From: a virus | Lineage: Duplodnaviria > Heunggongvirae > Uroviricota > Caudoviricetes | Virus record (IMG/VR): IMGVR_UViG_3300029305_003072 | DNA length: 64,000 nucleotides | Reading direction: 5' to 3' (one strand) | Shown: positions 1,258 through 19,620 of the stretch, in pieces | How the letters are laid out: every line of letters begins with the position of its first letter | How positions within the stretch are numbered: the first letter of the stretch is position 1 | Notes under the pieces: model-generated | The model's input: only the letters and a program-made list of their open reading frames with translations | Database searches by the model: none | Told to the model about the DNA's origin: nothing | Program-made: the position numbers and the translations under genes

Positions 1258-1309
1258 CTATACCTTTCAAAAATTTATTTATTTCGTAAGGCTTTCTTTC
1301 TTTACCTTA

Positions 1310-1346
1310 CATATATATTATATCATATTTTTTTGAAAAAATCAAT
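1310..1346 (-). promoter_or_regulatory. early promoter cassette copy A (TTGATT-17-TGaTATAAT)
   Basis: Minus-strand -35 TTGATT at plus 1340-1345 and -10 TATAAT at 1317-1322, with a 17-nt spacer. It is followed by the conserved GTAAG(G/A)TAAAGAAAG leader. The same ~60-bp cassette recurs 7 more times. Confidence 0.75.
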
Positions 1347-3057
1347 AGACGATTTTCCCGAGTAGGTCAATACGCTCTTCATCGCTCTTTGTGGCTTGCA
1401 TTTGCTTTAGCCACTCGATGGTGCGTCGACTCAAATTGCCGGCATTGAAGCCGTCCTCAGTAACATTGCGGATGTCAAATGCTTGGCGTCTATTACCCCA
1501 GCTATCTCTAACATCATACAACTGACCGAATAGAGGTTCATACTCTTCCGGATGGTTCAAACAATCTTCACAGATAGATACATAGAAGTTGTAATTAAAT
1601 CCATCACGAATTTCTTCGTTTTCAGTATCTGCAAACTGAAGATAAATGTGTGCAACGCAATCATTTCTATGATGGTCGCCGCAAACCTCACATTCACTCA
1701 GTTCATTGTGGTAACACCAGTCGCAGGCGATATAATCGTCGTCAACTGTATAGGACTCATCATATGAGCTGTGCCAGTCGCCGCAGAAATCGCAACGCCA
1801 GTGTCCGTCACACGCTCTGCACTGTACAACATGAGCATCGACCTCGTCAAGCTCAATAATATCGCCGCAGCCAGTGCAAACTGCAGGTCCAGAGAAGTTG
1901 CAAGAATAATGGTCATCATCTTCAATCTTCTGGTCTGCCACATATGCTAAACGATAATCATAGACATCATTGTACATATAATTACAGTAGAAGTTGAAAC
2001 GAATGTGTTTATCCTTGACAGTGTTCCAGCTGTCATTTTTCAGCTGAATAGTTTCTTCGGGATAAGGTCCATATCCCGGAATCTGAGTCATCAAATCTCG
2101 AATCCATCTAATCGCTACACCCTGCAAATCATCGCTGATGTAAGGATACTGACGATTTCCAAGAATGACTTCTCTTGTTACGATGTAAAGCTGACGCCAA
2201 CGCTTACTATTCCAGTTACCGCCGGGAGTCCACATAGGCTCCTTGGACTCAACATATGCCACGATGACACAAGGAGAGTTCATCATTTCGATGGTTCCCA
2301 GTCTGTAATCGCCAGGTTCGTCCATCCAGCTCATACAAGAGGTCCAGCCGCAGTTGTTATCACTCATAGTGATAAAATCAAGCGGGTGAATAGACAGGCA
2401 AAGATTACCTTTAATCTGCTTCTGGTTTAGAACTTGAGAATGTGCCTGTCGGAACAGCTCATATCCAGAAGACTTTTCTAACGGCCCGCAGCACTCTGTT
2501 TCGCCATCAGTGTAGTAGCAGCCACAACCGCTGCAGTACATGATGGGGAGTTCTACATTAAGAGCCGCCGCAATCTTACCAAGCATTTTAACAGCTTTGC
2601 AGTTAGCATTAACCACAAGAGGTCGTCCATCCTTAGTAAACTTGCCAGGGATTGTGAAACCAGGACCGGGATAAATATTGTCAACCAACATATCCCAATC
2701 TTCAACAAAGGACTTGAGGCGATAAGTCATATCAATATCGCCCATCTCGTTGCCGATATGTCGAGCAGCATCCTTATAGGCAGAAATAAAGTTACGAATC
2801 ATCTGGTGTCCGTTGTTTAAAGCGGAATACATATCATTGGACAGTTCATCTTTTGGCTTAACTAAACGAACTTCCTTTTTTACGATAAACTGCTCTCCGA
2901 ACGCCCGGAAGAACGGTTCTTTATTTTCGTCCCAAAAACGAAGGAAATATCCCATTTTGTCTAACGGAAGAGTTCCGTTACCTTCATCACCGTAGTGAGA
3001 AATATAAGACTTAAATTGTGACTTATCTTCGTCCGGGAGCCTTTCAAATATACTCAT
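1342..3057 (-). CDS. hypothetical protein, 571 aa, Cys/His-rich (zinc-binding) C-terminal region
   Basis: Long uninterrupted minus ORF with many CxxC/HxxC clusters in the last ~150 aa. Promoter cassette B lies upstream. Confidence 0.65.
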   Translation of the reverse strand: MSIFERLPDEDKSQFKSYISHYGDEGNGTLPLDKMGYFLRFWDENKEPFFRAFGEQFIVKKEVRLVKPKDELSNDMYSALNNGHQMIRNFISAYKDAARHIGNEMGDIDMTYRLKSFVEDWDMLVDNIYPGPGFTIPGKFTKDGRPLVVNANCKAVKMLGKIAAALNVELPIMYCSGCGCYYTDGETECCGPLEKSSGYELFRQAHSQVLNQKQIKGNLCLSIHPLDFITMSDNNCGWTSCMSWMDEPGDYRLGTIEMMNSPCVIVAYVESKEPMWTPGGNWNSKRWRQLYIVTREVILGNRQYPYISDDLQGVAIRWIRDLMTQIPGYGPYPEETIQLKNDSWNTVKDKHIRFNFYCNYMYNDVYDYRLAYVADQKIEDDDHYSCNFSGPAVCTGCGDIIELDEVDAHVVQCRACDGHWRCDFCGDWHSSYDESYTVDDDYIACDWCYHNELSECEVCGDHHRNDCVAHIYLQFADTENEEIRDGFNYNFYVSICEDCLNHPEEYEPLFGQLYDVRDSWGNRRQAFDIRNVTEDGFNAGNLSRRTIEWLKQMQATKSDEERIDLLGKIVY

Positions 3058-3089
3058 ATCGGCTACCTCTCATCTCTTTCTTTATCTTA

Positions 3090-3126
3090 CATATATATTA
3101 TAACATATTTTTTATAAAAAATCAAG
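3090..3126 (-). promoter_or_regulatory. early promoter cassette copy B
   Basis: -10 at plus 3097-3102 and -35 at 3120-3125, spacer 17; same cassette sequence as copy A. Confidence 0.75.
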
Positions 3127-3165
3127 AAAGATTTTTATCTCCCACGAGGGGAGCCCTAAGGCTCC

Positions 3166-4455
3166 TTACTCGTGATGCTCACCGCAGTGGCACTCATGAG
3201 CACCAGCGGGCTTATTAGCGTTCATCATCAGCATAAAGGGAAGCATATCACCCATCTTACTGTCACCGCTCATCAGAGCATACATCATCAGAGGGTTGGA
3301 CATATCGATGTTGCCACCATTAGCCATCAGCATCAGAGGCAGCATATCCTTCACACCATTGCCATCCTCAGACAGCATCATCATCAGACCCAGATTACCA
3401 AAGGGATTATTGGCATCTGCATTGAAAGCATTGCCCAGGAAGTTGACAACCTTGGTAACGAAATTGAAGCCGAAGGGGCTCTTAGTCAGCATAATCTCCT
3501 TACGCTCGCCAGAAACAGGGTCGACTGCAACGACAGCCTTACCGTCCTCAGCCTTGCCAACAACGAACATAGGAACGCTCATATGAACGATGATATCGCC
3601 AACAGCAACATCATTGATAGCCACAGGCATCTTATACATGAACTTGGAACCCTCGAAGTTGAACACATCGACGTCCATAATCTCGCCAGCCTTGGCATCA
3701 TAAGACACCCAAGTACCGACCTTATTTTTCACAGCCATACCGTAAACAGACATACGGACGACATTGTTATTCATAGGACCGAAGTCAAAATTGAAACCCT
3801 TCATAGTAGAATTCTCCTTTTTATTTTCATATTTATTCAAGACATTCTCAACCTTGGAGGTCAAGTCGTCCAGTCTTTTATCAAACTCTGCTTTATCGAC
3901 CTTGGTGTCGATTACGCAAGAAAGTGTGGGACCGGTATCTGCCGCAATAGCAGAAATACCAATGTCTGCCAGCTTATCTTTTGTGATTGCCAAAGAATGC
4001 TTTAGAGCCTCGCCGCAATCAATAGCGATATTTTTTGCAGACTCAATGGCTGCAATATCCAGTTTATAATTCTTAACAGGATATACACTACTGGAGGTGC
4101 ATTGTACCGTTGCATCAATAGGCACCTCGAGTTCATTACTCAAAGGCATATTATAATAATTCCAGTCGTGGTCATATTCCTTGACATCAATCAGATTTTC
4201 AAACAGAAAGTCGCCAAAACTTTCATCACCACGACAAAAGCGATGATATTCATCTTCGTGACCAATAATCACGACAAAGGAATCGCCGCACTTTTCAATG
4301 ATAACTTGAGTTTCATTATCTCTGCTGTATTTCAGCTTTCGCCACATATGGTAATCCATCTTATGAAACACACCATCATAGACGAAATCTTCAAAATCTG
4401 ATAGATAGCCACAAAAATCCCACCAACTCATATAGAGTTTAGAACCTGTCGGCAT
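3166..4455 (-). CDS. hypothetical protein, 429 aa, Met-rich C-terminus ending in a HECHCGEHHE metal-binding-like tail
   Basis: Uninterrupted minus ORF; overlaps the next upstream gene by a few nt, suggesting an operon. Confidence 0.6.
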   Translation of the reverse strand: MPTGSKLYMSWWDFCGYLSDFEDFVYDGVFHKMDYHMWRKLKYSRDNETQVIIEKCGDSFVVIIGHEDEYHRFCRGDESFGDFLFENLIDVKEYDHDWNYYNMPLSNELEVPIDATVQCTSSSVYPVKNYKLDIAAIESAKNIAIDCGEALKHSLAITKDKLADIGISAIAADTGPTLSCVIDTKVDKAEFDKRLDDLTSKVENVLNKYENKKENSTMKGFNFDFGPMNNNVVRMSVYGMAVKNKVGTWVSYDAKAGEIMDVDVFNFEGSKFMYKMPVAINDVAVGDIIVHMSVPMFVVGKAEDGKAVVAVDPVSGERKEIMLTKSPFGFNFVTKVVNFLGNAFNADANNPFGNLGLMMMLSEDGNGVKDMLPLMLMANGGNIDMSNPLMMYALMSGDSKMGDMLPFMLMMNANKPAGAHECHCGEHHE

Positions 4456-4768
4456 ATCTTTTACTTACCTCTCTCTCGATATATTCTATATCATCGGAGG
4501 TCAAAGCATCTGGACTTAGACCTACCGCATATAGCAGATTTGCCTGCGTTGCACTGTCATTCGGGTCATCAGCTGCCGCAAGCCTTTCAACATAATCATC
4601 AATGCAAGTCTGATGATATGCGTAGGCAGAAAATGCCAGATTGTTTATTGAAGTATGTCTGTCCGGTGCAAACAGACCAAATTCACAATGGCTGTGAACG
4701 CCGTGATTATTGTGGTCGCACTCATTATGCTCAGCGCGATGAGCATCACAAAACCAACTCATACGCAT
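4439..4768 (-). CDS. hypothetical protein (109 aa, His/Cys-rich)
   Basis: Minus ORF with ATGA-type start/stop overlap to the neighbouring gene. Confidence 0.5.
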   Translation of the reverse strand: MRMSWFCDAHRAEHNECDHNNHGVHSHCEFGLFAPDRHTSINNLAFSAYAYHQTCIDDYVERLAAADDPNDSATQANLLYAVGLSPDALTSDDIEYIEREVSKRYADRF

Positions 4769-5094
4769 TACCCCATAGAGAAATGACCCGCTCCGAAGTG
4801 TTTGAAGTAATCAAACAGGTTTACTTCGGTGCTTTCGCCGCAGTCTTCGCAATGAGCTTCGAAAGTCAGCTCCACATAAGGATACTCATCTTTCAGAGCA
4901 GTCAGAGCCTCGGCCGCAGCCTTCGCCAGCTCATTGAAACGCTTTTCCTTACGATGCATCTTTTCAAAGTGGATAGCCTTTTCCAGAGCCTCCAGCTCGT
5001 CCCAAGACATATCAATGAAATCTACATTCTTACACATAGTATCAATCCTTTCAAATGTGATGCGGTTTTGGATATTATTCTGGCGAGACCGCAA
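4768..5094 (-). CDS. hypothetical protein (108 aa)
   Basis: Minus ORF and first gene of the transcript from cassette C. It has an unusually long ~270-nt leader that contains the tRNA-like element. Confidence 0.55.
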   Translation of the reverse strand: MRSRQNNIQNRITFERIDTMCKNVDFIDMSWDELEALEKAIHFEKMHRKEKRFNELAKAAAEALTALKDEYPYVELTFEAHCEDCGESTEVNLFDYFKHFGAGHFSMG

Positions 5095-5205
5095 ACTCCC
5101 AGGGGGATAGGTTTTGTCATTTTGGATTACCTGCCCACAACCTCACTAGCCAGTTTTACGACTCCATCTGCTGTCGGTCAAGATACAAGACATATTACAT
5201 AACGT

Positions 5206-5282
5206 CGCTCTAACCAGTTGAGCTACTGGGCCATGTGGCGACCCAGGCAGGACTCGAACCTGCAACCCCCGGCGTGACAGGC
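5206..5282 (-). tRNA. permuted/split tRNA-Asp(GTC)-like element: 3' part (anticodon loop CTGTCAC, T-arm GCAGGTTCGAGTCCTGC, acceptor CTGGGTC, G, CCA; plus 5236-5282) followed by 5' part (GGCCCAG TA GCTCAACTGGTTAGAGC G; plus 5206-5232)
   Basis: Read on the minus strand: ...GCCTGTCACGCCGGGGGTTGCAGGTTCGAGTCCTGCCTGGGTCGCCA CAT GGCCCAGTAGCTCAACTGGTTAGAGCGACGTT. The 3' piece matches the bacterial tRNA-Asp anticodon/T-arm layout and has an encoded CCA. The 5' piece is a textbook acceptor plus D-arm whose first 7 nt pair perfectly, with one G-U, with the 3' acceptor strand. The 3' half precedes the 5' half, so no canonical tRNA can be folded. Confidence 0.5.
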
Positions 5283-5319
5283 AAATTGAAATTGCTGTTA
5301 ATGTCTTTCTTTATCTTAC

Positions 5320-5355
5320 ATATATATTATATCATATTTTTTTATAAAAATCAAA
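5320..5355 (-). promoter_or_regulatory. early promoter cassette copy C
   Basis: -10 at 5326-5331 and -35 at 5349-5354, spacer 17. Confidence 0.75.
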
Positions 5356-5387
5356 GAGAACTCTTTTCGCCAGGTGGCTGGCTGTCC

Positions 5388-6104
5388 TTACTTCACCAAA
5401 GAACAGCGAGTAAGGACAGTAGTTTCCACATTGCGAATGACCTTATGGTCTTTTACAGTACCCTTAATATGACGCTTATCGCCAACTTCCCAACTCTTGG
5501 AAGCAGTGCTCCACAGATACTGATTGCCAGCAGCATCAACCATATAGTGAATAGTCTGCTCACCATAGTAGCCATCACGCTTATGAGCAACGATAACTTC
5601 GACCTCAAGGTCAAGTCTTTCACCTACAGTGCCCTGGAAAGTAGAATCGCCCTTGTCATACAGGATAGACTCAACCGCAGACTTAACATCTGCATCAGGC
5701 TTCAGACAACCTTCTTCTTCACCAACCAGTTCCCACTTTAGCTCAATAGGCTCAAGGCCAGCAGGCAGGTCGAAAGGAACTGCTTCAGTAGATACAATGT
5801 ACCAGCCCCACCACTTACAGTATCTTGCGATGGACTTCTGGAACCATTCCAGGTTAGCATATGTATCACCCTTGAAGATAGTTACATAGCCATTCTCAAA
5901 GCCGAGAACCTGCTTCTGAGTCTTGAAAACTTTTGCAGGAGCATCTACTTTTTCGCCATACATTTTAGCGTACTCAGCTTCAGTATACCAACGAACCTTA
6001 CGAACAGTGCCGGACTTTTCATTCTGAACATTTACATACATCTTACCTTTTTCGCAGAAAGGCTCGCCCAACTGTTTCATACTCTGAAAAGATTTTGCTA
6101 CCAT
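5388..6104 (-). CDS. hypothetical protein (~238 aa)
   Basis: Minus ORF. The start was chosen at ATG MVAKSFQ, preceded by GAGGAGG from the end of the upstream small gene. Confidence 0.6.
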   Translation of the reverse strand: MVAKSFQSMKQLGEPFCEKGKMYVNVQNEKSGTVRKVRWYTEAEYAKMYGEKVDAPAKVFKTQKQVLGFENGYVTIFKGDTYANLEWFQKSIARYCKWWGWYIVSTEAVPFDLPAGLEPIELKWELVGEEEGCLKPDADVKSAVESILYDKGDSTFQGTVGERLDLEVEVIVAHKRDGYYGEQTIHYMVDAAGNQYLWSTASKSWEVGDKRHIKGTVKDHKVIRNVETTVLTRCSLVK

Positions 6105-6105
6105 A

Positions 6106-6297
6106 TTATTCCTCCTCAATCATAGCTTCACAGACGGGGCAAATCATACCGACGCTGATATAGGGATAATCACACTTGTAAATAGGCTCGCCACATTCGG
6201 GGCACTCGAAGAACTCTTCATCCCAGTCCACGTAAGCACCGAAATCTCTCTCAACAAAAGTTGCTACATACTGCCAACTCCATACCATATTTATCAT
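6106..6297 (-). CDS. small zinc-ribbon protein (63 aa; CPECGE..CPVCE)
   Basis: Minus ORF directly downstream of cassette D, with two CxxC pairs. Confidence 0.55.
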   Translation of the reverse strand: MINMVWSWQYVATFVERDFGAYVDWDEEFFECPECGEPIYKCDYPYISVGMICPVCEAMIEEE

Positions 6298-6318
6298 TTC
6301 CTTTCTCTTTCACTTTCT

Positions 6319-6354
6319 ATATATATTATATCATATTTTTTTATAAAAATCAAA
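6319..6354 (-). promoter_or_regulatory. early promoter cassette copy D
   Basis: -10 at 6325-6330 and -35 at 6348-6353, spacer 17. Confidence 0.75.
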
Positions 6355-6387
6355 GAAGCCTACTAGCATCTAGTAGGCTTCTTATCT

Positions 6388-6705
6388 TTACCACATTACA
6401 TCAACGACCACATAGTCGTACTCAGGAAACATATCCCGCAGAAAAGTCTTGATGCAATTTTCCAGACGGATGTGGGCTTCATCCTGCCAAGAATGACCCT
6501 CATATTCATCAAGCTCGTCAATGTAATATTTGCAGCACACATCGTTCATGTAGAAATTATCAAACATTAAACGACGAATACCATTGTGCTTTGCTCGAAT
6601 CTCCTGGATGAATTCAGGTCCATATTGAGCTTCAAGAGCATTTTCTAAATCTCCAACCCAAAAACAGGGAACGGTTTTATATTTCATTATATACACCCTC
6701 CACAT
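6388..6705 (-). CDS. hypothetical protein (105 aa)
   Basis: Minus ORF in a tightly packed leftward operon driven by cassette E. Confidence 0.5.
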   Translation of the reverse strand: MWRVYIMKYKTVPCFWVGDLENALEAQYGPEFIQEIRAKHNGIRRLMFDNFYMNDVCCKYYIDELDEYEGHSWQDEAHIRLENCIKTFLRDMFPEYDYVVVDVMW

Positions 6706-7007
6706 TCACCAGGACGGAAGTCCTCGGCTTGAAACGCCAAATAAATGTCGAACAAAGAAGCCGGCAGGTCATGAACCCAGGGATTCTCCGCAACCCACTC
6801 CTCAAATTCTAGACCATCCTCGTAGTTTCCAAACTGTTCGCACATATCGTCATCAAACCACCACTCTTCATAAGTGCCGGCAGTGTTCATATGAGAAGTT
6901 CGCAGGTCTTCTGGAATCATATGGGAATAATTCACTCCTCCGATGAAGAGTGACCACTCACCAGAGCAACGGCAAGGGTATTCGCCAGACCATTTTGCAA
7001 TTACCAT
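6687..7007 (-). CDS. hypothetical protein (106 aa)
   Basis: Minus ORF overlapping neighbours by a few nt. Confidence 0.5.
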   Translation of the reverse strand: MVIAKWSGEYPCRCSGEWSLFIGGVNYSHMIPEDLRTSHMNTAGTYEEWWFDDDMCEQFGNYEDGLEFEEWVAENPWVHDLPASLFDIYLAFQAEDFRPGECGGCI

Positions 7008-7017
7008 AGAAACCTCC

Positions 7018-7323
7018 TTACTTCACATAAATATCAATATCTTCACCCATAAAACAGTAATTAAACTCTATCTTTTTGACAATATATCCATATTGCCAAC
7101 CATTTAAGTGATGATAAAAGATGTTATTATTATATAGGTCGTAATCAAAACAACGCACAATATTATCAGAGCCACGATAAATGGTTACTGTTCCCCAAGT
7201 TTTTTGATTTTCCCGAAGCCACTTCAGAGCCTCTTCGAGCGTAACAGCATTTTGTTCAATTTCGATATGACCAAAACCGCTGCCCATGTCAGACATCTGA
7301 GGTCTATCAATTATTCGTTTCAT
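7018..7323 (-). CDS. hypothetical protein (~101 aa)
   Basis: Minus ORF. The start was chosen at MKRIIDR, preceded by GGAGG; the longer ORF-track start lacks an SD. Confidence 0.5.
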   Translation of the reverse strand: MKRIIDRPQMSDMGSGFGHIEIEQNAVTLEEALKWLRENQKTWGTVTIYRGSDNIVRCFDYDLYNNNIFYHHLNGWQYGYIVKKIEFNYCFMGEDIDIYVK

Positions 7324-7324
7324 T

Positions 7325-7630
7325 TTAATCCTCCAAATCAAACAACAGTTCTGGCGGGCAACAATACCCGTATAAACGGTACTTATCATTATACCACTTA
7401 GCAGTCTTCCGCAAATCTTGTTCTGCTTCGTTTAATTCCTCGATGGAGATAATGAAATCATGTCCAGTCTCATACTGGTCTTTGATGCGGCGATATTTAA
7501 TCCATTTCTCAATGATAATCTTCTTATCTAGCCAAGCCTGCATACGAATTGTATCCATATGCTTAGCGAAAAGAAATGAACCTAAAAGAATACTCGCCAC
7601 AACAATAGGGATAATGACTGTCTCCCACAT
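7325..7630 (-). CDS. hypothetical membrane-anchored protein (101 aa, N-terminal TM helix)
   Basis: Minus ORF with a hydrophobic N-terminus (VIIPIVVASILLGSFLFA). Confidence 0.5.
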   Translation of the reverse strand: MWETVIIPIVVASILLGSFLFAKHMDTIRMQAWLDKKIIIEKWIKYRRIKDQYETGHDFIISIEELNEAEQDLRKTAKWYNDKYRLYGYCCPPELLFDLED

Positions 7631-7920
7631 TAGAACATCCCCCTCGTACCATTTACAAGGAATTTCATCATATCACACAGCTCAGATTGCTTTTTCATTT
7701 TCTCCAGAACTTCATCGGGAGTTGCCGCACCCTCTGTGAGATAAGTAATGGCCTCCCGCAAACTCTGATTTTCGCATTCATATGCCAACATTTCCTGCTC
7801 CTGGGCAGCTATAATGGCTTGAGATTGATTATATTTCATACGCCACTCTTCAGCCTCGTGACGTAGCTTAGCTCGTTCTCTGTCCCAGGCTAAGTCTTTC
7901 GCAGTTTTTTGATATGCCAT
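7630..7920 (-). CDS. hypothetical protein (96 aa, coiled-coil-like)
   Basis: Minus ORF with start/stop overlap to the neighbouring gene. Confidence 0.5.
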   Translation of the reverse strand: MAYQKTAKDLAWDRERAKLRHEAEEWRMKYNQSQAIIAAQEQEMLAYECENQSLREAITYLTEGAATPDEVLEKMKKQSELCDMMKFLVNGTRGMF

Positions 7921-7929
7921 ACTTCCTCC

Positions 7930-8238
7930 TTACCACCACAGACGATTGGCAGAATTCCAAAACAGTTCAAAAATCAAATCGCCAATCATATTTTCGGGAA
8001 GACGACCATAACCAGTCATATAGTCAAACATAGAATTGACTTCTTCCTCTTCAAAATCTGCCAGACCGCCTTCCCATTCATCAACGATGGCAAACATCTT
8101 AACTTCAACCTGGCAATCGTGAGGCTTAGACAGGAAGTCTACCAGCTCCTTACAGGTACTAAACACAGTACCATCCTCACAGCGGAAGCAAGGAGAGTGA
8201 TTATCATCATCAAGACCCAGAATTCTCAAATTTTCCAT
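7930..8238 (-). CDS. hypothetical protein (~102 aa)
   Basis: Minus ORF starting at MENLRILG, with AAAGGA 10 nt upstream; cassette E is immediately upstream. Confidence 0.5.
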   Translation of the reverse strand: MENLRILGLDDDNHSPCFRCEDGTVFSTCKELVDFLSKPHDCQVEVKMFAIVDEWEGGLADFEEEEVNSMFDYMTGYGRLPENMIGDLIFELFWNSANRLWW

Positions 8239-8281
8239 ATATATCAATTCCTTTCTGAACTTTTCTTATCCTTTACTTTCT

Positions 8282-8317
8282 ATAAATATTATATCATATT
8301 TTTTTATAAAAATCAAT
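8282..8317 (-). promoter_or_regulatory. early promoter cassette copy E
   Basis: -10 at 8288-8293 and -35 at 8311-8316, spacer 17. Confidence 0.75.
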
Positions 8318-8326
8318 AGACCCTCT

Positions 8327-8360
8327 GAAAACCAGAGGGTCTATTTTTTTACATATATTT
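8327..8360. terminator. stem-loop terminator (TAGACCCTCTG/CAGAGGGTCTA) with T-run, probably bidirectional
   Basis: An 11-bp stem followed by TTTTTTT on plus; it overlaps the stop of minus gene 8349-8576. Confidence 0.55.
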
Positions 8361-12612: not shown

Positions 12613-12724
12613 AGTCGATTTTTTCAGCCTTTTTCTTTCGACGAGAGAAAATGACGGGAAACGATTTTTACGGAGTCCGTCAGCAATCTTTCATCTTTTA
12701 TCTTTATCTCTTTCTTTACTTTAC

Positions 12725-12760
12725 ATATATATTATATCATAAATTTTTTATAAAATCAAT
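12725..12760 (-). promoter_or_regulatory. early promoter cassette copy F
   Basis: -10 at 12731-12736 and -35 at 12754-12759, spacer 17. Confidence 0.75.
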
Positions 12761-12857
12761 TAGCAAATAAATAGTTGCGGTTTGGAGAATCGTAGTGTCT
12801 AGGGGTCCAGAGACGAGAGATTGGTTTAGCTGACATAAAAGCGCTTTGGAGCCTCCC

Positions 12858-13060
12858 GGCCGCAAACTTTAAATGAAAAATGTTAAAAAATTAGACAGCT
12901 ATATTTTTGTTAAAAAATTAGACTTCTATGTATTTGGTTAAAAAAATAGACATCTATATATTTGTTAAAAAAATGTGTTAAAATTTTGTACATCTATATA
13001 AAATGTTAAAAATTTAGACTTCTATATCGTGGGTAAAACTTGTTAAATGGTTAACAACTT
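12858..13060. repeat. iteron array: >=5 direct repeats of GTTAAAAAATTAGAC-N3-CTATAT at ~28-30 bp spacing
   Basis: Repeats are visible at ~12866, 12894, 12922, 12950/12965 and 12990, and three more copies lie at 13715-13780 on the other side of the gene. Confidence 0.65.
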
Positions 13061-13086: not shown

Positions 13087-13707
13087 GTGATTGTGTTAAA
13101 GATTCAACCAAATTCAAGACAGGTTCCCAAGGCTAAAGATATTTGTTCGAATAAAAAGTATTATGATATTCTTTATGCTTATCTTCAGTGTATCTCAACA
13201 AGAGATGAGAAGAGCGGAACTAGATATTTTTCAAAGAAAGATATAAATTTTAGTAAGCTTGGTGAGATGTTTAACTTATCGAGACAGACGGTTTCAACGA
13301 AGTTTAAGAATCTAAAGGAATTGGGTTTAGTTGTTGAAGCAGGAAAAGATACATATAGATTAGTTGAATTAAGTGCTGATTTAGCTTCTTTGGTTCCATA
13401 TGGGACATTAAAGTTAATTACAGACACTTTAAGTGAGAATTCTATTTCAACTTATATTTATTTATTGAATTGTTATTATGCTAATGAGTGTCGTCCGTTT
13501 TAGTTTACATTAGACCAGGTAAAGAGTTATATTGGAATTAGCACAAGCACGAGAAGTAATAATGATACCGTAACGAATATCCTGTATGTATTAGAAAAGG
13601 TGGGGCTGATTAAGTATTCATTGACTACAATGAAACAAGAGGCGGACACTTTTCAAAATGTGAAAACAATTTATCAATTAGACTGGTTAACTAATACGTT
13701 GAATTAA
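13087..13707 (+). CDS. replication initiator / replisome-organizer-like winged-HTH protein (~206 aa), read through an in-frame TAG at 13501-13503
   Basis: GTG start after GGAAGGGAGG, with an HTH segment LSRQTVSTKFKNLKELGLV. The frame stays open for 68 codons past the TAG and encodes a second wH-like segment (DQVKSYIGISTSTRSNNDTVTNILYVLEKVGLIKY) ending at TAA 13705-13707. Confidence 0.55.
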
Positions 13708-13714
13708 AGTGTTA

Positions 13715-13780
13715 AAAATTTAGACGCATGAGTGTTAAAATTTTGTACATACTTTGTTAAAAAAATAGTATCCTTATAAA
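13715..13780. repeat. second iteron cluster (GTGTTAAAAATTTAGAC..., TGTTAAAATTTTGTACAT...)
   Basis: Same repeat family as 12858-13060, flanking the initiator-like gene. Confidence 0.55.
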
Positions 13781-16613: not shown

Positions 16614-17219
16614 TTAGAAAGGCAGTTCGTGGTGTTCCGCCGCCCACTGGCAAGCGATTTTGTTGTATTCCTCTGTGATGGAAGGAATGTCGATGAAAGA
16701 GCGACTTGCCATGTAGTCCGCCATGTGAACACATCTGTCCACGCTGGTGAAAGGTCTGTCCTCTCGTTCAGTAGACCATTGACCCATGTGACTTTCAACT
16801 GCGTTCAGCAGAAGAAAATGGGGAGTAAAATCGAACACCTGTTCGCACCAACCTGCAAAAGCCTTGCTTGCGTTTCTTGCGTGGTTCTTGTATTCTGCCT
16901 TGTCAAACCAATCGACACCATACTTTGCGGTATCATGGATGATACAAGCCGCAATTACGAAGTCCTTGTACTCGTCTTTCATGTAGGCGTAGGAACTCAT
17001 GCGGAGCAGTTCTTCAGCGAACATCACAACCGCCTTGGTGTGACGAACCAGACCGCCGATGCCCTGCGAAAACTGGGGATGATACTTGCCAGAAGAGGAA
17101 GCACCATCTGTCCAGAAGTAGTCAGGGGTGGCTTCTTCCATGTAAGACTTGACCGCCATACGCAGGTCTTCATTGACAATCAGATTGATTTCACGCTCAA
17201 ACAGTTTAATGGTTCTCAT
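16614..17219 (-). CDS. HD-domain metal-dependent phosphohydrolase (201 aa)
   Basis: The H...HD...D signature is present: KYHPQ, GGLVRHT and IIHDTAKYG. Confidence 0.65.
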   Translation of the reverse strand: MRTIKLFEREINLIVNEDLRMAVKSYMEEATPDYFWTDGASSSGKYHPQFSQGIGGLVRHTKAVVMFAEELLRMSSYAYMKDEYKDFVIAACIIHDTAKYGVDWFDKAEYKNHARNASKAFAGWCEQVFDFTPHFLLLNAVESHMGQWSTEREDRPFTSVDRCVHMADYMASRSFIDIPSITEEYNKIACQWAAEHHELPF

Positions 17220-17268
17220 AGTAAATTACCCTTTCTTGTGGAGCACTCGCTCCCTTGATTACATACTT

Positions 17269-17297
17269 ATTATAGCACAGACTTAATAATTTGTCAA
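17269..17297 (-). promoter_or_regulatory. promoter, family 2
   Basis: -10 at 17269-17274 and -35 at 17292-17297. Confidence 0.75.
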
Positions 17298-17305
17298 GCA
17301 CTTTT

Positions 17306-17476
17306 TTAATTTTCATTGGAAAAAGGAACACAAGCTAAAAGCTCATTAGACGCTAATTCGATAATGTATCGATACATGGTTGCATCGTCATGGAGAGTTC
17401 CCCCAAAAGATAAAACAGTATCAATAATAACTTTGTGCAATTCAGCTTTAGCCTTGCGCATTTCTTCTGCGGTCAT
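17306..17476 (-). CDS. small hypothetical protein (56 aa)
   Basis: ATG with AGAGGTGAGG upstream and a TAA stop. Its promoter is TTGATT-17-TATACT at ~17495-17540. Confidence 0.4.
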   Translation of the reverse strand: MTAEEMRKAKAELHKVIIDTVLSFGGTLHDDATMYRYIIELASNELLACVPFSNEN

Positions 17477-17614
17477 TTGCCTCACCTCTTAGGATTAGTA
17501 TACCACCAATTGCGGGAAAAATCAAGATGACAAACTGCACAAAAAATTCGATTGGAAATTTACGGGGACTAGTTATTTTGACGAATTCCGGGCGCCACAC
17601 TCGTTGGCGCACGG

Positions 17615-17652
17615 CGCAAAAAAGCCCCTGCCCCACGAATTGGGGGCAGGGG
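17615..17652 (-). terminator. rho-independent terminator (CCCCTGCCCC..GGGGCAGGGG)
   Basis: A 10-bp GC stem preceded on plus by CAAAAAAG, downstream of gene 17666-18034. Confidence 0.65.
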
Positions 17653-17665
17653 GAGGAAGGGGTCA

Positions 17666-18034
17666 TCACTGGATGACCCTGAAGAACGCCTTGCGCTTCT
17701 CCTCGATGCGCTCGACAGACACACCAATCATGCCACGCACGATGGCGCTCACTCGCTGATTAGTCAGCTCTGCGCAGGCAGGCACTTCCTTAATCAGCTC
17801 AGTGATGGAGAACAGACGATTGGGGTCTGCGCTCATGTGGGACAGAATGGCTTCTGCCACACCAGCATTGGCGACCTGCTGGGCAGTAGGCTTCTTCTCA
17901 GCAGAGTTCTTCTTCGCCAGGAGTTCCAGCTCATGCTCGATGAACTCGACCAGCGCAAGGTTGGACTTGACCTCAGCCAGGGTCAGCAGGGTGTTGAAAT
18001 GGTCCTTCTTAGTCAGCTTCTTAGTGTTTGCCAT
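17666..18034 (-). CDS. paralog family A protein, copy 1 (~122 aa)
   Basis: Start at MANTKK after the conserved leader. It shares the core ELELLAKKNSAEKKPTAQQ..VPACAELTNQRVSAIVRG.IG..VER.EEKRKA.FR with 19201-19569 and 22239-22598. Confidence 0.65.
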   Translation of the reverse strand: MANTKKLTKKDHFNTLLTLAEVKSNLALVEFIEHELELLAKKNSAEKKPTAQQVANAGVAEAILSHMSADPNRLFSITELIKEVPACAELTNQRVSAIVRGMIGVSVERIEEKRKAFFRVIQ

Positions 18035-18088
18035 AGTATCAGTTCCTTTCTGGTTTTTTAGGGTTTTCCTTCCCTTGATTACATACTT

Positions 18089-18117
18089 ATTATAGCACAT
18101 GGTTTTGAGTTTGTCAA
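18089..18117 (-). promoter_or_regulatory. promoter, family 2
   Basis: -10 at 18089-18094 and -35 at 18112-18117. Confidence 0.75.
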
Positions 18118-18683
18118 GAGGTTTTCAAAAAATATTCGCGACTATTTTTTTTATTCCCACAGCATCCTTGCGCTCACTGGACTTGTTTCTGCCCCCTGCC
18201 TTGAGTCTACTCGCACCCTTTCGTTGCTCACCACTCACCCTAGTAGGGGGGAATCTTGCGTAGGAGTTGTAGAGTTTCAATTCGCCTGTGTCTGTTTCCA
18301 CCATCTGTTGCGGTCTTGCCTCGAAGGAGTTCCCCTCTTGATTACATACTCATTATAGCACATCTTGTGCTGTTTGTCAAGTGGTTTTTCAAAAGTTTTT
18401 TGAAAAAGTTTCGGTGGTCTGATTGGTGGGACAATCTAACCCCTCTGCCCAACATTTTTCAACCCTCTGCGCCGACCCATCTGCGGGGGTTTACTTCATC
18501 CCCTTGACACTACTAATTATAGCAGATTTTTAGGAAAATGCAAGTGGTAATGTTGTACAAATAATTGGGTAAAAAACTTGTTGAACTTGTGCATTTTGCC
18601 GAATACCGGGCCGCACATCTGTGTGCGGCCGGCCGATTTTTGTGCAAATTGCACAAATTTAAATTTAATTTGGAAAAAATAAC

Positions 18684-18712
18684 GAAAAAATCGCCCTTTT
18701 GGGGCGATTTTC
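18684..18712. terminator. bidirectional terminator (ATCGCCC..GGGCGAT flanked by A- and T-runs)
   Basis: A-run, 7-bp stem and T-run; adjacent to the stop of 18713-19084. Confidence 0.65.
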
Positions 18713-19084
18713 TCAACTTTTTGGCTTGCGTTTCTGCACAAGCGTCAGTTCGTAGGCATTTTCACCAACTTTTAAGGCGATTTGACGCTCTTTATTGGTG
18801 ATTTCGACCATTTCGTAGCCATTTTCAGCCAAAAACTGAGCAATTTCGGCAATTATCGTGGCTTTTGTGGGGTTTTCCTTGCGTTTTCGCTCGGTTTTCT
18901 GCCCATTTGTCTGCCTTGTGCCAGTATTTGCGAATTTTTTGGCTTGCTTTTCGGCTTCAGGTGAGAGGTCAAAAGCCATTCGCTCACCTCTGTCGATTGC
19001 CTTGTCGTCTGCGATAATCTGTTCGGCTTCTTCTTTGGAGCATTTCAGATTTCGCATAATGCGTTCGACTTGACTTTCTGCCAT
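18713..19084 (-). CDS. paralog family B protein, copy 1 (123 aa)
   Basis: Shares the N-terminal ..S.EEA.Q.I.DDKAIDRG..M....P..EK.AKK motif with 21754-22113. Confidence 0.6.
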   Translation of the reverse strand: MAESQVERIMRNLKCSKEEAEQIIADDKAIDRGERMAFDLSPEAEKQAKKFANTGTRQTNGQKTERKRKENPTKATIIAEIAQFLAENGYEMVEITNKERQIALKVGENAYELTLVQKRKPKS

Positions 19085-19109
19085 TGGTTTACCCCCTTTC
19101 TGTACTTAC

Positions 19110-19138
19110 AGTATAGCACATCTTGGGCGGTTTGTCAA
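19110..19138 (-). promoter_or_regulatory. promoter, family 2 (TTGACA-17-TATACT)
   Basis: -10 at 19110-19115 and -35 at 19133-19138. Confidence 0.7.
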
Positions 19139-19200
19139 GACCTTTTTTGAAATTCCGTGCCCCATTTTGGGGGGGCTATTGCCCCCCCTTGGGGAGTGGC

Positions 19201-19569: not shown

Positions 19570-19620
19570 AGTATCAATTCCTTTCTGGTTTTTAAGACTG
19601 TCCTTGTCTTTGTGTATTTA

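What the first reader, a model, noticed from the sequence alone, without database searches (positions are those of the whole stretch)
5206..5282. Permuted tRNA-Asp(GTC)-like gene halves inside a long 5' leader
The minus strand carries the 3' 47 nt of a tRNA-Asp-like molecule (anticodon loop CTGTCAC, variable loop, T-arm GCAGG-TTCGAGT-CCTGC, acceptor CTGGGTC, discriminator G, encoded CCA). Three nt later comes a 5' acceptor + D-arm piece (GGCCCAG-TA-GCTCAACTGGTTAGAGC) whose acceptor strand is complementary to that 3' strand. The order is 3' half then 5' half, with the break in the anticodon stem, so no normal tRNA is encoded. The element sits in the only long (~270-nt) leader among the early promoter cassettes. 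Possible explanations are a circularly permuted tRNA gene, decay of a tandem tRNA-Asp pair after insertion of the mobile promoter cassette, or a recombination scar.
Basis: seen in the sequence. Interest (0 to 1): 0.75.

Follow-up and report, generated by a model that had tools for sequence, protein, structure and literature searches.

The report
Y-RNA-like tRNA mimic in phage leader
The apparent "scrambled tRNA-Asp gene" is a 121-nt member of a conserved family of phage tRNA-mimicking Y-like RNAs that normally sit beside a Ro60-type protein gene; here an orphan copy is grafted onto the tip of a hairpin in an early mRNA leader, in some strains of the phage but not others.

Summary
On the minus strand, 5282..5206 reads: Asp-type anticodon-loop remnant, V loop, T arm, acceptor 3' strand, GCCA, CAU, acceptor 5' strand, D arm. 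No tRNA is encoded there.

It is not a permuted tRNA gene or a decay scar. It is the core of a 121-nt RNA (5307..5187) with the YrlA/Y-RNA layout: a basal stem, an invariant ACAGCAAU motif, a T arm, a 7-bp acceptor helix closed by a loop, and a D arm.

Evidence for family membership:
- A covariance model built without the window scores it 97 bits (E 2e-18). Tandem-tRNA junction controls score 47-55 bits.
- All four helices covary in 15 other members (19 of 22 pairs compensatory).

Family members lie in tandem, co-oriented and just upstream of a DUF2828-DUF7788 gene. An AlphaFold model of that protein, searched with Foldseek, matches Ro60 structures best. Unannotated copies occur in cultured Enterococcus phages.

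In this window the RNA has no Ro60 partner within 64 kb. It replaces the apical loop of the first hairpin of an ancestral, structured ~180-nt leader. Strains with and without it coexist.

Its function is inferred, not shown: a tRNA mimic processed from the leader (a likely RNase P site with an encoded CCA) that acts with a Ro60-type protein or as a decoy. I rate it a new variant of a known kind, of moderate interest.

The parts
5326..5354 (-). Sigma70-type early promoter cassette: -35 TTGATT (5354-5349), 17-nt spacer, -10 TATAAT (5331-5326). The predicted transcription start is about 5320-5317.
   Evidence: The cassette is repeated at least 6 times on the minus strand, with 0 expected by chance. 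The sequence is read. The start site is inferred, not mapped.
5312..5317 (-). Outer stem, 5' strand AAGAUA. This is the ancestral P1 hairpin of the leader. It pairs with 5185-5180.
   Evidence: The stem is present in both module-plus and module-less alleles (A1; A2). It forms in both the unconstrained and the constrained folds.
5187..5307 (-). The complete Y-RNA-like (YrlA-type) tRNA-mimic module, 121 nt.
   Evidence: Rfam YrlA gives a full-length match, 41.9 bits, E 7.6e-8. The leave-out family model R2 gives 97.4 bits, E 2e-18, with all modelled pairs canonical. The module is absent from L135/L136 and all more distant leader homologues.
5301..5307 (-). Family basal stem, 5' strand AAGACAU. 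It pairs with AUGUCUU at 5193-5187.
   Evidence: Covariation: 5 of 7 pairs compensatory in A5 and 6 of 7 in 15 non-window members.
5291..5298 (-). Hallmark motif ACAGCAAU. It is invariant in the family and aligns with the ACAG-UUAC (YUAY) region of canonical YrlA.
   Evidence: Invariant CAGCAA in A3-A5. In 67 Ro60-like loci the motif occurs 195 times on the gene strand and 20 times on the opposite strand, with 141 copies within 1.5 kb upstream of the gene.
5269..5285 (-). Degenerate anticodon-arm remnant: UUUGC, CUGUCAC (Asp GUC loop), GCCGG. Only 2 G-C and 2 G.U pairs can form.
   Evidence: Sequence. L029a has the homologous CUGUCAA loop. Other members have different arms or none.
5264..5268 (-). 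Variable-loop equivalent GGGUU. U48 (5264) can form the Levitt pair with A15 (5218).
   Evidence: Sequence. The A15:U48 alternative is described for YrlA in PMC4201824.
5247..5263 (-). T arm GCAGG-UUCGAGU-CCUGC.
   Evidence: Strains L134, L230 and L231 have GUAGG, which keeps the pair as U.G.
5226..5246 (-). Closed 7-bp acceptor helix: CUGGGUC (5246-5240), loop GCCACAU (5239-5233, made of discriminator G, encoded CCA and CAU), GGCCCAG (5232-5226). The predicted RNase P site lies between U5233 and G5232.
   Evidence: All 6 modelled acceptor pairs covary. N-CCA follows the 3' strand in 5 of the first 10 family members. M. smegmatis YrlA, which also has a 7-bp stem, is cut by RNase P and receives CCA (PMC4201824). 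Cleavage at this site in the window is inferred.
5207..5225 (-). U8-A9 plus D arm GCUC-AACUGGUUA-GAGC, with A14 and G18-G19.
   Evidence: The D-loop varies among strains (AAUUGG, AAUCGG) while the stem stays intact.
5194..5206 (-). Linker GACGUUAUGUAAU between the D arm and the basal stem.
   Evidence: L029a has the homologous AACGUAAAACG... linker. The linker is A-rich in all members.
5180..5185 (-). Outer stem, 3' strand UAUCUU. AUGUCUUG followed by UAUCUUG looks like the recombination joint.
   Evidence: A1 and A2. L232 carries ...GUAAU-GUAUCUUG without AUGUCUU.
5038..5179 (-). Ancestral structured leader: hairpin CGAC/GUCG (5176-5159), a variable hairpin, an H-type pseudoknot (S1 5102-5096 with 5087-5080; S2 5092-5089 with 5065-5062), and RBS AAAGGA (5051-5046).
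   Evidence: Compensatory changes across L135, L139, L142, L144, L146 and L230.
4768..5037 (-). First gene of the early operon (89 aa, no known family). It is followed by genes of 109 aa (4768-4439) and 429 aa (4455-3166).

Best explanation
WHAT IT IS (shown). The feature is the tRNA-like core of a 121-nt RNA module (5307..5187, minus strand). It belongs to a conserved family of phage RNAs with the YrlA (bacterial Y RNA) layout. In order, the layout is:
- a covarying basal stem;
- an invariant ACAGCAAY motif;
- a variable region that is often a decayed anticodon arm;
- a V loop and a T arm;
- a 7-bp acceptor helix closed by a loop;
- a D arm and an A-rich linker.

Elsewhere these RNAs occur in one to several tandem copies, on the same strand and mostly within 1.5 kb upstream of a DUF2828-DUF7788 gene. 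That protein's predicted fold is that of Ro60, a HEAT-repeat ring plus a vWA domain. The RNAs often sit at the edge of phage tRNA arrays.

In this phage lineage one copy replaces the apical loop of the first hairpin of an older, structured, roughly 180-nt leader of an early operon. Alleles with and without it coexist. No Ro60-type gene lies in the 64-kb window.

HOW IT MOST LIKELY WORKS (inferred).
1. It is transcribed from the strong early promoter as the 5' end of the mRNA.
2. It folds into an L-shaped tRNA mimic: the elbow nucleotides G18-G19/U55-C56 and the Levitt pair A15:U48 are present.
3. tRNA enzymes recognise it. RNase P cuts between U(-1) and G(+1) in the acceptor loop, and trimming exposes the encoded GCCA. 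This is what happens in M. smegmatis YrlA.
4. The module is thereby freed, or left base-paired, and acts as a Y-type RNA. It either binds a Ro60-type protein encoded elsewhere in the phage genome or by the host, gating or tethering it to an exonuclease, or it serves as a decoy for tRNA-directed nucleases.
5. As a side effect it gives the early mRNA a processed, base-paired 5' end.
For: Identity:
- Rfam YrlA full-length hit, E 7.6e-8.
- Leave-out covariance model R2: 97.4 bits, E 2e-18. Tandem-tRNA junction controls score 47-55 bits and the module-less allele gives no hit.
- Alignment with members from other phages shows invariant CAGCAA and covarying stems.
- On a structure-blind MAFFT alignment, 98.5% of cells pair, 15 of 22 pairs are compensatory, 0 of 500 shuffles reach this, and slid registers give 26-47%.
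- Among 15 non-window members, 19 of 22 pairs are compensatory.

Protein partnership of the family:
- Enterococcus phages EfV12-phi1 and CCS1 have two copies about 250 nt upstream of a 510-aa DUF2828+DUF7788 protein.
- The same protein lies next to the RNA in L006, L074, L014, L058 and L073.
- In 80 loci fetched by the protein alone, all 43 RNA hits are on the gene strand.
- ACAGCAAY occurs 195 times on the gene strand against 20 on the opposite strand, and is present in the upstream 1.5 kb in 47 of 67 loci.

The protein is Ro60-like:
- hhalign against TROVE proteins gives 98.5% probability, E 1.9e-15.
- The AlphaFold2 model has pLDDT 90.9.
- The top 7 Foldseek hits are all Ro60/TROVE structures, TM about 0.6.

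Positive control: 9 of 10 GC-rich YrlA-like RNAs in the same scan sit beside TROVE proteins.

Insertion and polymorphism.

Selection on the fold: in strains about 10% diverged, changes fall only in loops or as G-C to G.U.

Fold energy: the enforced tRNA-like fold is -39.4 kcal/mol against an MFE of -40.0.

Against: - No Ro60/TROVE/DUF2828 gene lies in the window (Pfam; tblastn; hhalign below 1% probability).
- The nearest complete relative, Phass-1, has neither the RNA nor the protein.
- The score is below Rfam's curated YrlA threshold (41.9 against 69). The GNCGAA Ro-binding motif of canonical YrlA is absent.
- Module-less alleles are common and viable, so the module is dispensable.
- The covariance signal comes largely from the tRNA-like core, which tandem tRNAs also mimic.
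- There are no expression, processing or binding data.
- L232 shows that this module recombines with tRNA genes, so a copy could land somewhere without being useful there.
Confidence: 0.7

Rival explanations
1. Same descent, but here it works only in cis. The tRNA-like module serves as an RNase P processing and 5'-end protection signal for the early mRNA (compare mascRNA or mitochondrial t-elements), or it modulates the structured leader. No Ro60-type partner is involved.
For: - It lies inside an mRNA leader, at the tip of a conserved 5' hairpin.
- No Ro60-like gene is in the window.
- The RNase P determinants are ideal: a 7-bp stem, U-1, G+1 and an encoded RCCA.
- The basal P1 stem is preserved, so the leader architecture is kept.
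Against: - The family-specific ACAGCAAU motif and basal stem are fully retained, although a pure RNase P signal would not need them.
- Relatives express the same operon without the module.
- Only 64 kb of a probably 130-200 kb genome is visible, so a partner gene may exist.
Confidence: 0.15
2. Neutral passenger. A family copy was recently transferred by recombination, through promoter-cassette homology on the left and UCUUG microhomology on the right. It has no function in this position.
For: - Presence/absence polymorphism among near-identical strains.
- A duplicated AUGUCUUG-UAUCUUG joint.
- L232 shows the same 82 nt recombined with a tRNA-Arg gene in an unrelated context.
- The usual protein partner is absent.
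Against: - The module is present and intact in at least four backgrounds, up to about 12% diverged, that are mosaic for the downstream hairpin type.
- Substitutions are restricted to loops or wobble-compatible positions, while the neighbouring leader hairpin varies freely.
Confidence: 0.1
3. Remnant of a tandem tRNA-Asp gene pair. The 3' two-thirds of copy 1 and the 5' third of copy 2 were left after deletions or a cassette insertion, and are now decaying.
For: - The un-permuted halves make a clean tRNA-Asp(GTC), with matching acceptor strands and a Levitt pair.
- Real tandem duplicates (L045, L101, L120) give the same 7/7 acceptor signature and sub-threshold YrlA and R1 scores.
- Chen et al. 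2014 warn of this artefact.
Against: - The window holds no tRNA genes at all.
- The break points coincide exactly with the architecture of a conserved family.
- The non-tRNA parts (basal stem, ACAGCAAU, linker) are homologous to those of L029a, L006, L084, L039, L074 and the Enterococcus phages.
- It scores 97 bits against 47-55 bits for true tandem junctions.
- It is conserved rather than decaying.
Confidence: 0.04
4. A genuine circularly permuted or split tRNA gene that yields a working tRNA-Asp after processing, or alternatively a phage attP core that copies a host tRNA junction.
For: - The 3'-then-5' order and encoded CCA resemble permuted tRNA genes.
- The Asp identity elements G73, G34-U35-C36 and C38 are present in the sequence.
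- L232 places the shared 82 nt beside an integrase and tRNA genes.
Against: - The 5' strand of the anticodon stem is missing. ACGUU pairs with GCCGG at only 3 of 5 positions, and UUUGC at only 4 of 5, two of them G.U.
- Bacteria lack the bulge-helix-bulge splicing route (established knowledge).
- The anticodon-like arm is variable or absent in family members.
- ARAGORN, which also detects permuted tmRNA genes, finds nothing.
- For the attP reading: none of the roughly 20 window ORFs scanned, which include every ORF of 300 aa or more, matches an integrase; the flanks of L232 do not match the window on either side; module-less strains exist; and the site lies inside an early transcript.
Confidence: 0.02

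Closest known systems
YrlA, the bacterial Y RNA-like tRNA mimic (Rfam RF02553; Chen et al. 2014, PMC4201824)
   Same: - The order of elements matches: stem, V region, T arm, closed acceptor-like helix, D arm, stem.
- The tRNA tertiary nucleotides and the A15:U48 Levitt alternative are present.
- The family is co-oriented with, and close to, a Ro60-type gene, often in several copies.
- It has a 7-bp acceptor stem as in M. smegmatis YrlA, which RNase P cuts.
- Being co-transcribed with mRNA has precedent in the rsr-yrlBA-rtcBA operon (PMC7790460).
- The region AACAG-CAAU-UUCA aligns with AACAG-UUAC-UUCA of a TROVE-type phage YrlA (L092).
   Different: - It is below Rfam's gathering score.
- It has ACAGCAAY instead of the GNCGAA and YUAY motifs.
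- The family's partner is a DUF2828-DUF7788 Ro60 paralogue, not a Pfam-TROVE protein.
- This copy has no Ro60 gene within 64 kb.
- This copy is embedded in the apical part of an mRNA leader hairpin.
- This copy keeps an Asp-type anticodon-loop remnant and an encoded CCA.
Tandem (dimeric) tRNA genes in phage tRNA arrays
   Same: - A T arm plus 3' acceptor strand is followed within a few nucleotides by a 5' acceptor strand plus D arm.
- The acceptor strands are complementary when the two genes are duplicates (L045, L101, L120).
   Different: - Neither flanking tRNA is complete here.
- The flanks are a family-specific stem and motif.
- The covariance score is far higher (97 against 47-55 bits).
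Circularly permuted tRNA genes (Cyanidioschyzon merolae and some archaea) and permuted two-piece tmRNA genes
   Same: - The 3' half is encoded upstream of the 5' half, with the acceptor strands joined by a short intervening loop.
- The CCA-ending piece comes first, as in two-piece tmRNA.
   Different: - Those genes encode every tRNA (or tRNA-like domain) part and are processed to a functional molecule.
- Here one strand of the anticodon stem is missing.
- There is no tag reading frame and no Ala G3:U70 identity pair.
- ARAGORN detects nothing.

This comparison rests on my own knowledge of those systems. Only the ARAGORN result was tested here.
tRNA-like processing or decoy elements in long RNAs (mascRNA of MALAT1, plant mitochondrial t-elements, the RNase P-processed C4 RNA of phages P1/P7)
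   Same: A tRNA-shaped element embedded in a longer transcript could recruit RNase P and define a new RNA end.
   Different: - Those elements are ordinary-order cloverleaf mimics, not T-acceptor-D modules with a closed acceptor.
- No homology was tested.

This is a functional analogy from my own knowledge only.

Membership tests
YrlA / bacterial Y RNA (Rfam RF02553) | Match to the Rfam covariance model at its gathering score (69 bits) | tested here: not met
   The window scores 41.9 bits, full-length, E 7.6e-8, and gives nothing at gathering score. Caveat: phage YrlA-like RNAs that sit beside TROVE genes also score only 39.5-50.3 bits. A tandem-tRNA junction scores 36.9 bits.
YrlA / bacterial Y RNA (Rfam RF02553) | tRNA-like domain in the order T arm, closed acceptor-like helix, D arm, enclosed by a stem, with tRNA tertiary nucleotides | tested here: met
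   Sequence: U8, A14, A15:U48, G18-G19, U54-U55-C56 and A58 are present. Alignment to the YrlA model. Covariation of all four helices.
YrlA / bacterial Y RNA (Rfam RF02553) | GNCGAAN0-1G motif near the 5' end (the proposed Ro60 contact) | tested here: not met
   A regex scan of the whole leader finds none. The family has an invariant ACAGCAAY motif instead.
YrlA / bacterial Y RNA (Rfam RF02553) | YUAY motif at the start of the V region | tested here: inconclusive
   The window has CAAU (a YAAY pattern) directly after ACAG. This is the position where the TROVE-linked L092 RNA has ACAG-UUAC.
YrlA / bacterial Y RNA (Rfam RF02553) | Encoded within about 4 kb of, and on the same strand as, a Ro60/Rsr (TROVE) gene | tested here: not met
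   No TROVE, DUF2828 or vWA_Ro60 protein is found in the 64-kb window: Pfam on about 20 ORFs, which include every ORF of 300 aa or more; tblastn; hhalign below 1% probability.
YrlA / bacterial Y RNA (Rfam RF02553) | Physically bound by Ro60/Rsr | not testable with these tools
   This needs immunoprecipitation or in vitro binding.
   R2, built from 15 non-window sequences, gives 97.4 bits, E 2e-18, full-length, with no non-canonical pair. Controls score 47-55 bits.
   The feature holds for the family. In the window there is a single copy, no such gene and no tRNA genes.
Functional tRNA-Asp | Complete cloverleaf in normal order, detectable by tRNA finders | tested here: not met
   ARAGORN finds 0 genes in the window and in the native leader. 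There is no Rfam tRNA hit. A tRNA is called only after artificial un-permutation.
Circularly permuted tRNA gene | All tRNA segments present, so that end-joining and cleavage regenerate a full tRNA (both anticodon-stem strands) | tested here: not met
   After the D arm comes ACGUU, which pairs with GCCGG at only 3 of 5 positions. Before the loop, UUUGC gives 2 G-C and 2 G.U pairs.
Permuted (two-piece) tmRNA | tRNA-Ala-like domain plus a tag reading frame; detected by ARAGORN's tmRNA search, which by my own knowledge includes a permuted-gene mode | tested here: not met
   ARAGORN finds 0 tmRNA genes. Rfam tmRNA matches only a 17-nt T-loop stretch, 7.7 bits.
Phage attP at a tRNA gene | An integrase nearby, and identity to a bacterial tRNA 3' end with phage sequence on one flank in lysogens | tested here: inconclusive
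   None of the roughly 20 ORFs scanned, which include every ORF of 300 aa or more, matches an integrase; shorter ORFs across most of the window were not scanned. L232 shares 82 nt beside tRNA genes and an integrase, but neither of its flanks matches the window. The genome-contig collection was not scanned.

The most novel reading that the evidence does not exclude
The phage makes an early mRNA whose 5' end is a Y-RNA/tRNA mimic.

RNase P cleavage inside the closed acceptor loop would give a two-piece, tRNA-shaped complex. In that complex the mRNA body begins with the 5' acceptor strand and the D arm. It stays base-paired, through 7 + 7 + 6 bp, to a small RNA of about 85 nt that ends in GCCA and carries an Asp-type loop (G73, GUC, C38).

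Such a particle could do one of three things:
- hijack a host Ro60/PNPase machine;
- titrate anticodon nucleases or other tRNA-directed defences early in infection;
- be charged.

The presence/absence polymorphism would then reflect an ongoing arms race in a phage group that already rewires decoding (TAG recoding).
Probability: 0.12. Interest if true: 0.85.

Novelty: new variant of a known kind. Interest (0 to 1): 0.55.

Why it matters
**For this locus.** An apparent "impossible tRNA" becomes an interpretable element: a Y-RNA-type tRNA mimic that has been captured by an mRNA leader. Natural plus and minus alleles exist, and they could serve as a ready-made experiment.

**More broadly.** The follow-up delimits a low-GC class of Y-like RNAs marked by ACAGCAAY.
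- Rfam's YrlA threshold misses this class.
- It is unannotated in the two cultured-phage records inspected (Enterococcus phages EfV12-phi1 and CCS1).
- It accompanies a Ro60-fold protein, DUF2828-DUF7788, which is found in 691 cultured phage genomes and thousands of metagenomic ones.

The 2014 survey of YrlA looked only at genomes with annotated TROVE proteins (254 bacteria and 22 phages). This class therefore suggests that the Ro60/Y-RNA system is much more common in phages than recorded there.

The function of bacterial and phage Ro60-Y RNA particles is still open. Tractable phage-host pairs (Enterococcus, Listeria, Felix-O1-like coliphages), together with an orphan leader-embedded copy, would make it directly testable.

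Tried and rejected
**Searches that led nowhere**
- ARAGORN on the window and on the native leader found nothing.
- Rfam at gathering score found nothing.
- Megablast of 3000-8000 against phage genomes found no match.
- Exact or near-exact patterns for the module and for the invariant leader in IMG/VR gave 0 hits.
- Distant relatives fetched through the flanking proteins (37-52% identity) have no T-loop/D-arm motif nearby.
- Phass-1, the nearest complete relative, has no family RNA and no Ro60-like gene.
- Sequence and profile searches of the DUF2828 protein against PDB sequences found no Ro60. The kinship appeared only with hhalign and a fold search.

**Measures rejected as uninformative**
- The single-sequence fold z-score is uninformative (0.15).
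- The Rfam YrlA bit score cannot discriminate on its own. A tandem tRNA-Asn junction scores 36.9 bits and true TROVE-linked RNAs score 39-50 bits.
- My own model R1 also scores tandem-tRNA junctions at up to about 52 bits. L065 and L007 were therefore rejected as false positives.
- R1's score for the window was set aside as circular and replaced by the leave-out model R2.

**Ideas rejected**
- The window's large unannotated proteins (571, 429, 512 and 490 aa) are not cryptic Ro60s.
- Stop-codon recoding does not explain the ORF-poor 17-31 kb region.

**Not done**
- I did not scan genome contigs for a host tRNA-Asp.
- I did not walk out of the window to the rest of the phage genome.
Full report
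**1. The observation**

In order it contains:
- an Asp-type anticodon loop, CUGUCAC;
- GCCGG, then a V loop, GGGUU;
- a T arm, GCAGG-UUCGAGU-CCUGC;
- an acceptor 3' strand, CUGGGUC;
- G-CCA, then three nucleotides, CAU;
- an acceptor 5' strand, GGCCCAG;
- UA, then a D arm, GCUC-AACUGGUUA-GAGC.

ARAGORN finds no tRNA or tmRNA in the whole window or in the native leader. Rfam finds nothing at its curated thresholds. When I join the two pieces in the normal order, ARAGORN calls a 77-nt tRNA-Asp(GTC). The halves are therefore mutually compatible, and they include an A15:U48 Levitt pair.

The context claim is also right. A sigma70-type promoter cassette (TTGATT, 17 nt, TATAAT) is repeated at least six times on the minus strand, with 0 expected by chance. 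The other cassettes have leaders of about 20-60 nt. This one has about 280 nt.

**2. First lead: YrlA**

A permissive Rfam scan of the region gave one strong hit. It was a full-length match (model positions 1-114 of 114) to YrlA, the bacterial Y RNA-like family, at 41.9 bits and E 7.6e-8. That is below the gathering score of 69.

YrlA RNAs have exactly this "permuted" order. According to Chen et al. 2014 (PMC4201824):
- a T arm, an acceptor-like helix closed by a loop and a D arm are all enclosed by a stem;
- the RNA lies within 4 kb of a Ro60/Rsr gene, on the same strand;
- there is a GNCGAA motif and a YUAY motif;
- the M. smegmatis YrlA, which has a 7-bp acceptor stem, is cut by RNase P and receives CCA;
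- dimeric tRNAs can imitate the signature.

**3. Calibrating that lead**

I scanned IMG/VR for a T-loop, a short spacer and a D-arm in this order. This returned 120 loci, and the distribution was bimodal. In 20 loci the acceptor 7-mers were perfectly complementary. Most of the rest were ordinary neighbouring tRNAs.

The complementary class split three ways:
- true tandem duplicates of one tRNA (L045, L101, L120);
- GC-rich RNAs with a GUUACUUC motif;
- AT-rich RNAs that share a 5' ACAGCAAU motif and similar flanks with the window.

The Rfam YrlA scores overlap across these groups:

| Group | YrlA bits |
|---|---|
| tandem tRNA junction | 36.9 |
| GC-rich class | 39.5-50.3 |
| AT-rich class | 31.7-42.8 |
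| window | 41.9 |

The Rfam score alone therefore proves nothing. Nine of ten GC-rich RNAs lie directly beside a TROVE protein, some of which also have the Ro60 vWA domain. They are canonical YrlA/Rsr pairs that Rfam's threshold misses.

**4. The window element belongs to a conserved family**

I aligned the window with L029a/b, L006a/b, L084 and L039. The alignment shows an invariant CAGCAA and an enclosing stem that changes by compensation:

| Member | 5' strand | 3' strand |
|---|---|---|
| window | AAGACAU | AUGUCUU |
| L029b | AAGGCAC | GUGCCUU |
| L006a | UAGACAC | GUGUCUA |
| L006b | UAGACCC | GGGUCUA |
| L084 | AGAUACG | CGUAUCU |
| L039 | UAGAUGCG | CGCAUCUA |

On the structure-blind MAFFT alignment:
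- 98.5% of cells pair, against 26-47% in slid registers;
- 15 of 22 pairs have changes on both sides;
- 0 of 500 shuffles reach this.

A covariance model (R1) found further members: L039b, L074, L029c and the Enterococcus phage copies. It also found tandem-tRNA junctions, at up to about 52 bits.

Because the window was in R1's seed, I built a second model, R2, from 15 non-window members. R2's results:

| Sequence | R2 bits |
|---|---|
| window element (E 2e-18, full-length, all pairs canonical) | 97.4 |
| tandem-tRNA controls | 47-55 |
| L232 chimera | 59.9 |
| module-less allele (L135) | no hit |

Among those 15 members, 19 of 22 pairs covary.

For the window element itself, the enforced tRNA-like fold has an energy of -39.4 kcal/mol, against an unconstrained minimum of -40.0. 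Both folds share the two basal stems, the T arm and the acceptor hairpin.

**5. The family's partner is a Ro60-fold protein**

*Adjacency in cultured and uncultured phages.* blastn found the module at 74-76% identity over positions 8-106 in about 150-kb cultured Enterococcus phages, with nothing annotated under the match. In EfV12-phi1 and vB_OCPT_CCS1, two tandem copies (68-76 bits) lie at the end of the tRNA array. They are about 250 nt upstream of a 510-aa "RNA-binding protein" that matches Pfam DUF2828 + DUF7788, with a weak vWA match. The same protein sits next to the RNA in L006, L074, L014, L058 and L073.

*A test free of RNA-based selection.* I fetched 80 loci by the protein alone; more than 583 exist in IMG/VR.
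- All 43 RNA hits with E < 1e-5 are on the gene's strand. Most lie within 1 kb upstream or just downstream of the gene.
- ACAGCAAY occurs 195 times on the gene strand, 20 times on the other strand, and about 15 times per strand would be expected by chance.
- 141 of those copies fall in the 1.5 kb upstream of the gene.
- The motif is present there in 47 of 67 loci, against 3 of 67 on the opposite strand.

*The protein's fold.*
- hhalign links its C-terminal half to TROVE-family proteins at 98.5% probability, E 1.9e-15, including the DxSGSM MIDAS motif.
- An AlphaFold2 model has pLDDT 90.9 and pTM 0.90.
- The seven best Foldseek matches in the PDB are all Ro60/TROVE structures. They include Xenopus Ro 1YVR/1YVP (TM about 0.6 over about 550 columns), Thermus phage phiLo Ro60, and the Ro60-pre-5S rRNA complex.
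- Everything lower on the list is only a vWA domain.

*How common it is.* Homologues occur in 691 cultured phage genomes. In one mycobacteriophage record it is already labelled "Ro-like RNA binding protein". The protein's kinship to Ro60 is therefore not new. The 2014 YrlA survey covered only genomes with annotated TROVE proteins: 254 bacteria and 22 phages. I found nothing in the searchable literature on DUF2828 in phages or on this RNA class.

**6. What is special about the window copy**

*It is an insertion into an older leader.* I retrieved contigs that encode exactly the 89-aa protein downstream of the leader, together with contigs encoding its homologues at 69-89% identity. Every more distant relative, and some near-identical strains (L135, L136), has a structured leader of about 180 nt without the module. 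In those leaders the first hairpin reads AAGAU-AAAGA-AAGAG-AUAAAAA-CUCUU-CCAAAA-AUCUU. In the window, L134, L137, L230 and L231, the apical part of that hairpin is replaced by the module. The outer stem AAGAUA/UAUCUU is kept.

*It has been maintained.* The module-bearing strains differ by up to about 12% in their flanks and are mosaic for the type of the next hairpin. Inside the module, substitutions occur only in loops and spacers, or convert G-C to G.U.

*It recombines with tRNA genes.* The right-hand junction, AUGUCUUG-UAUCUUG, looks like a microhomology joint. L232 carries 82 nt of the same module (96% identical) fused to the 5' two-thirds of a tRNA-Arg(ACG). This lies in a tRNA cluster beside an integrase gene, in an otherwise unrelated sequence. 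That shows the module exchanges with tRNA genes.

*It has no visible partner.* The window contains only this one copy and no tRNA genes. It contains no Ro60-type protein by Pfam, tblastn or hhalign. The nearest complete relative is Phage Phass-1, a 136-kb phage of the "code 15 clade". It has a tRNA array of about 35 genes but neither the RNA nor the protein.

**7. Mechanism**

*Shown:* the fold-defining covariation, the family's genomic partnership with a Ro60-fold protein, the insertion polymorphism, and the position immediately downstream of a strong early promoter.

*Inferred from established knowledge of YrlA* (PMC4201824, PMC7790460):
1. The module folds as an L-shaped tRNA mimic.
2. RNase P probably cuts it between U5233 and G5232. 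The determinants are a 7-bp helix, U at -1, G at +1, and an encoded G-CCA that can pair with RNase P RNA.
3. The 3' end is then trimmed to CCA. N-CCA follows the acceptor 3' strand in 5 of the first 10 family members, against 1 in 64 per sequence expected by chance.
4. The resulting RNA, or two-piece complex, would act either as a partner or gate for a Ro60-type protein (from the unseen part of the phage genome, or from the host) or as a decoy for tRNA-directed nucleases. The decoy idea was proposed for YrlA in PMC7790460.

Whether any of this happens in this leader is untested. The cis-only reading and the neutral-passenger reading remain open.

**8. Verdict**

The element is a new variant of a known kind. 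It is a YrlA-type Y RNA of an unannotated low-GC class, and it is unusual in being an orphan copy built into an mRNA leader hairpin and polymorphic among strains.

Noticed in passing
window 5038-5179 (minus strand): The rest of the leader is a conserved structured RNA in all relatives. It has a CGAC/GUCG hairpin, a hypervariable hairpin with compensatory changes, and an H-type pseudoknot (S1 5102-5096 with 5087-5080; S2 5092-5089 with 5065-5062) that ends about 10 nt before the RBS. The compensatory variants are L139 GGUGG/CCACC plus CCGC/GCGG, L230 CUGUAAG/CUUGCAG, and L144 GCGAGA/UCUCGC with an extra hairpin. It is a candidate new cis-regulatory leader and matches no Rfam family.
   Followed up: partly
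window 34000-64000 (+ strand genes): Reading TAG as a sense codon nearly doubles the residues in long ORFs (6,067 to 11,287 aa, while the ORF count rises only from 21 to 26). TGA as sense has almost no effect. The nearest complete relative, Phage Phass-1 (OQ749652), is classified in the 'code 15 clade' and carries three tRNA-Sup(CTA) genes. The late genes here are probably TAG-recoded, yet the window has no tRNA gene.
   Followed up: partly
window 17000-31000: This stretch has a strong negative AT skew (about -0.2) and few long ORFs on either strand under any single stop-codon reassignment. It has only patchy tblastx similarity to the ends of the Phass-1 genome.
   Followed up: partly
window 12876-13040: Five direct repeats of about 36 nt (GTTAAAAAATTAGAC...TATATTTTTG) lie 27-40 nt apart, with related copies at 13705-13768. 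They are iteron-like and may mark a replication origin or a regulatory array.
   Followed up: no
window 1292-1362, 3072-3142, 5301-5371, 6300-6370, 8263-8333, 12706-12776 (minus strand): The early promoter cassette is repeated. Several copies are preceded by a GC-rich hairpin that looks like the terminator of the previous unit, and each is followed by a purine-rich start, GUAAGAUAAAGAAAGAG. Homology between these cassettes is a plausible route by which the RNA module moved.
   Followed up: partly
L029 5852-6477 and 187-276 (IMGVR_UViG_3300018495_000082, a relative of the window phage): A ROOL RNA (323 bits) and a partial OLE RNA match (52.9 bits against a gathering score of 50) lie in the same tRNA-array region that holds three copies of the Y-like RNA.
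   Followed up: no
L054, L092, L008, L099 and other GC-rich loci: Rfam's YrlA gathering score (69 bits) misses phage YrlA-like RNAs that sit directly beside TROVE/Ro60 genes. These score only 39-50 bits, so YrlA is under-called in phage genomes.
   Followed up: yes
L232 70-211 (ERZ808032 NODE-4635): This is a chimera. The 5' two-thirds of a tRNA-Arg(ACG) is joined to the T arm, closed acceptor and D arm of the window's module. It follows tRNA-Ser and tRNA-Phe and lies near a tyrosine integrase gene. The called tRNA-Arg has a poorly paired acceptor stem (three Watson-Crick pairs, three G.U wobbles and one mismatch).
   Followed up: partly
L162, L163, L188, L182, L152, L171 (upstream of Ro60-like genes): Many lower-scoring ACAGCAAU-bearing RNAs have long insertions (25-55 nt) where the acceptor loop would be, or lack a simple closed acceptor. 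The family is structurally more diverse than model R1/R2 captures.
   Followed up: no
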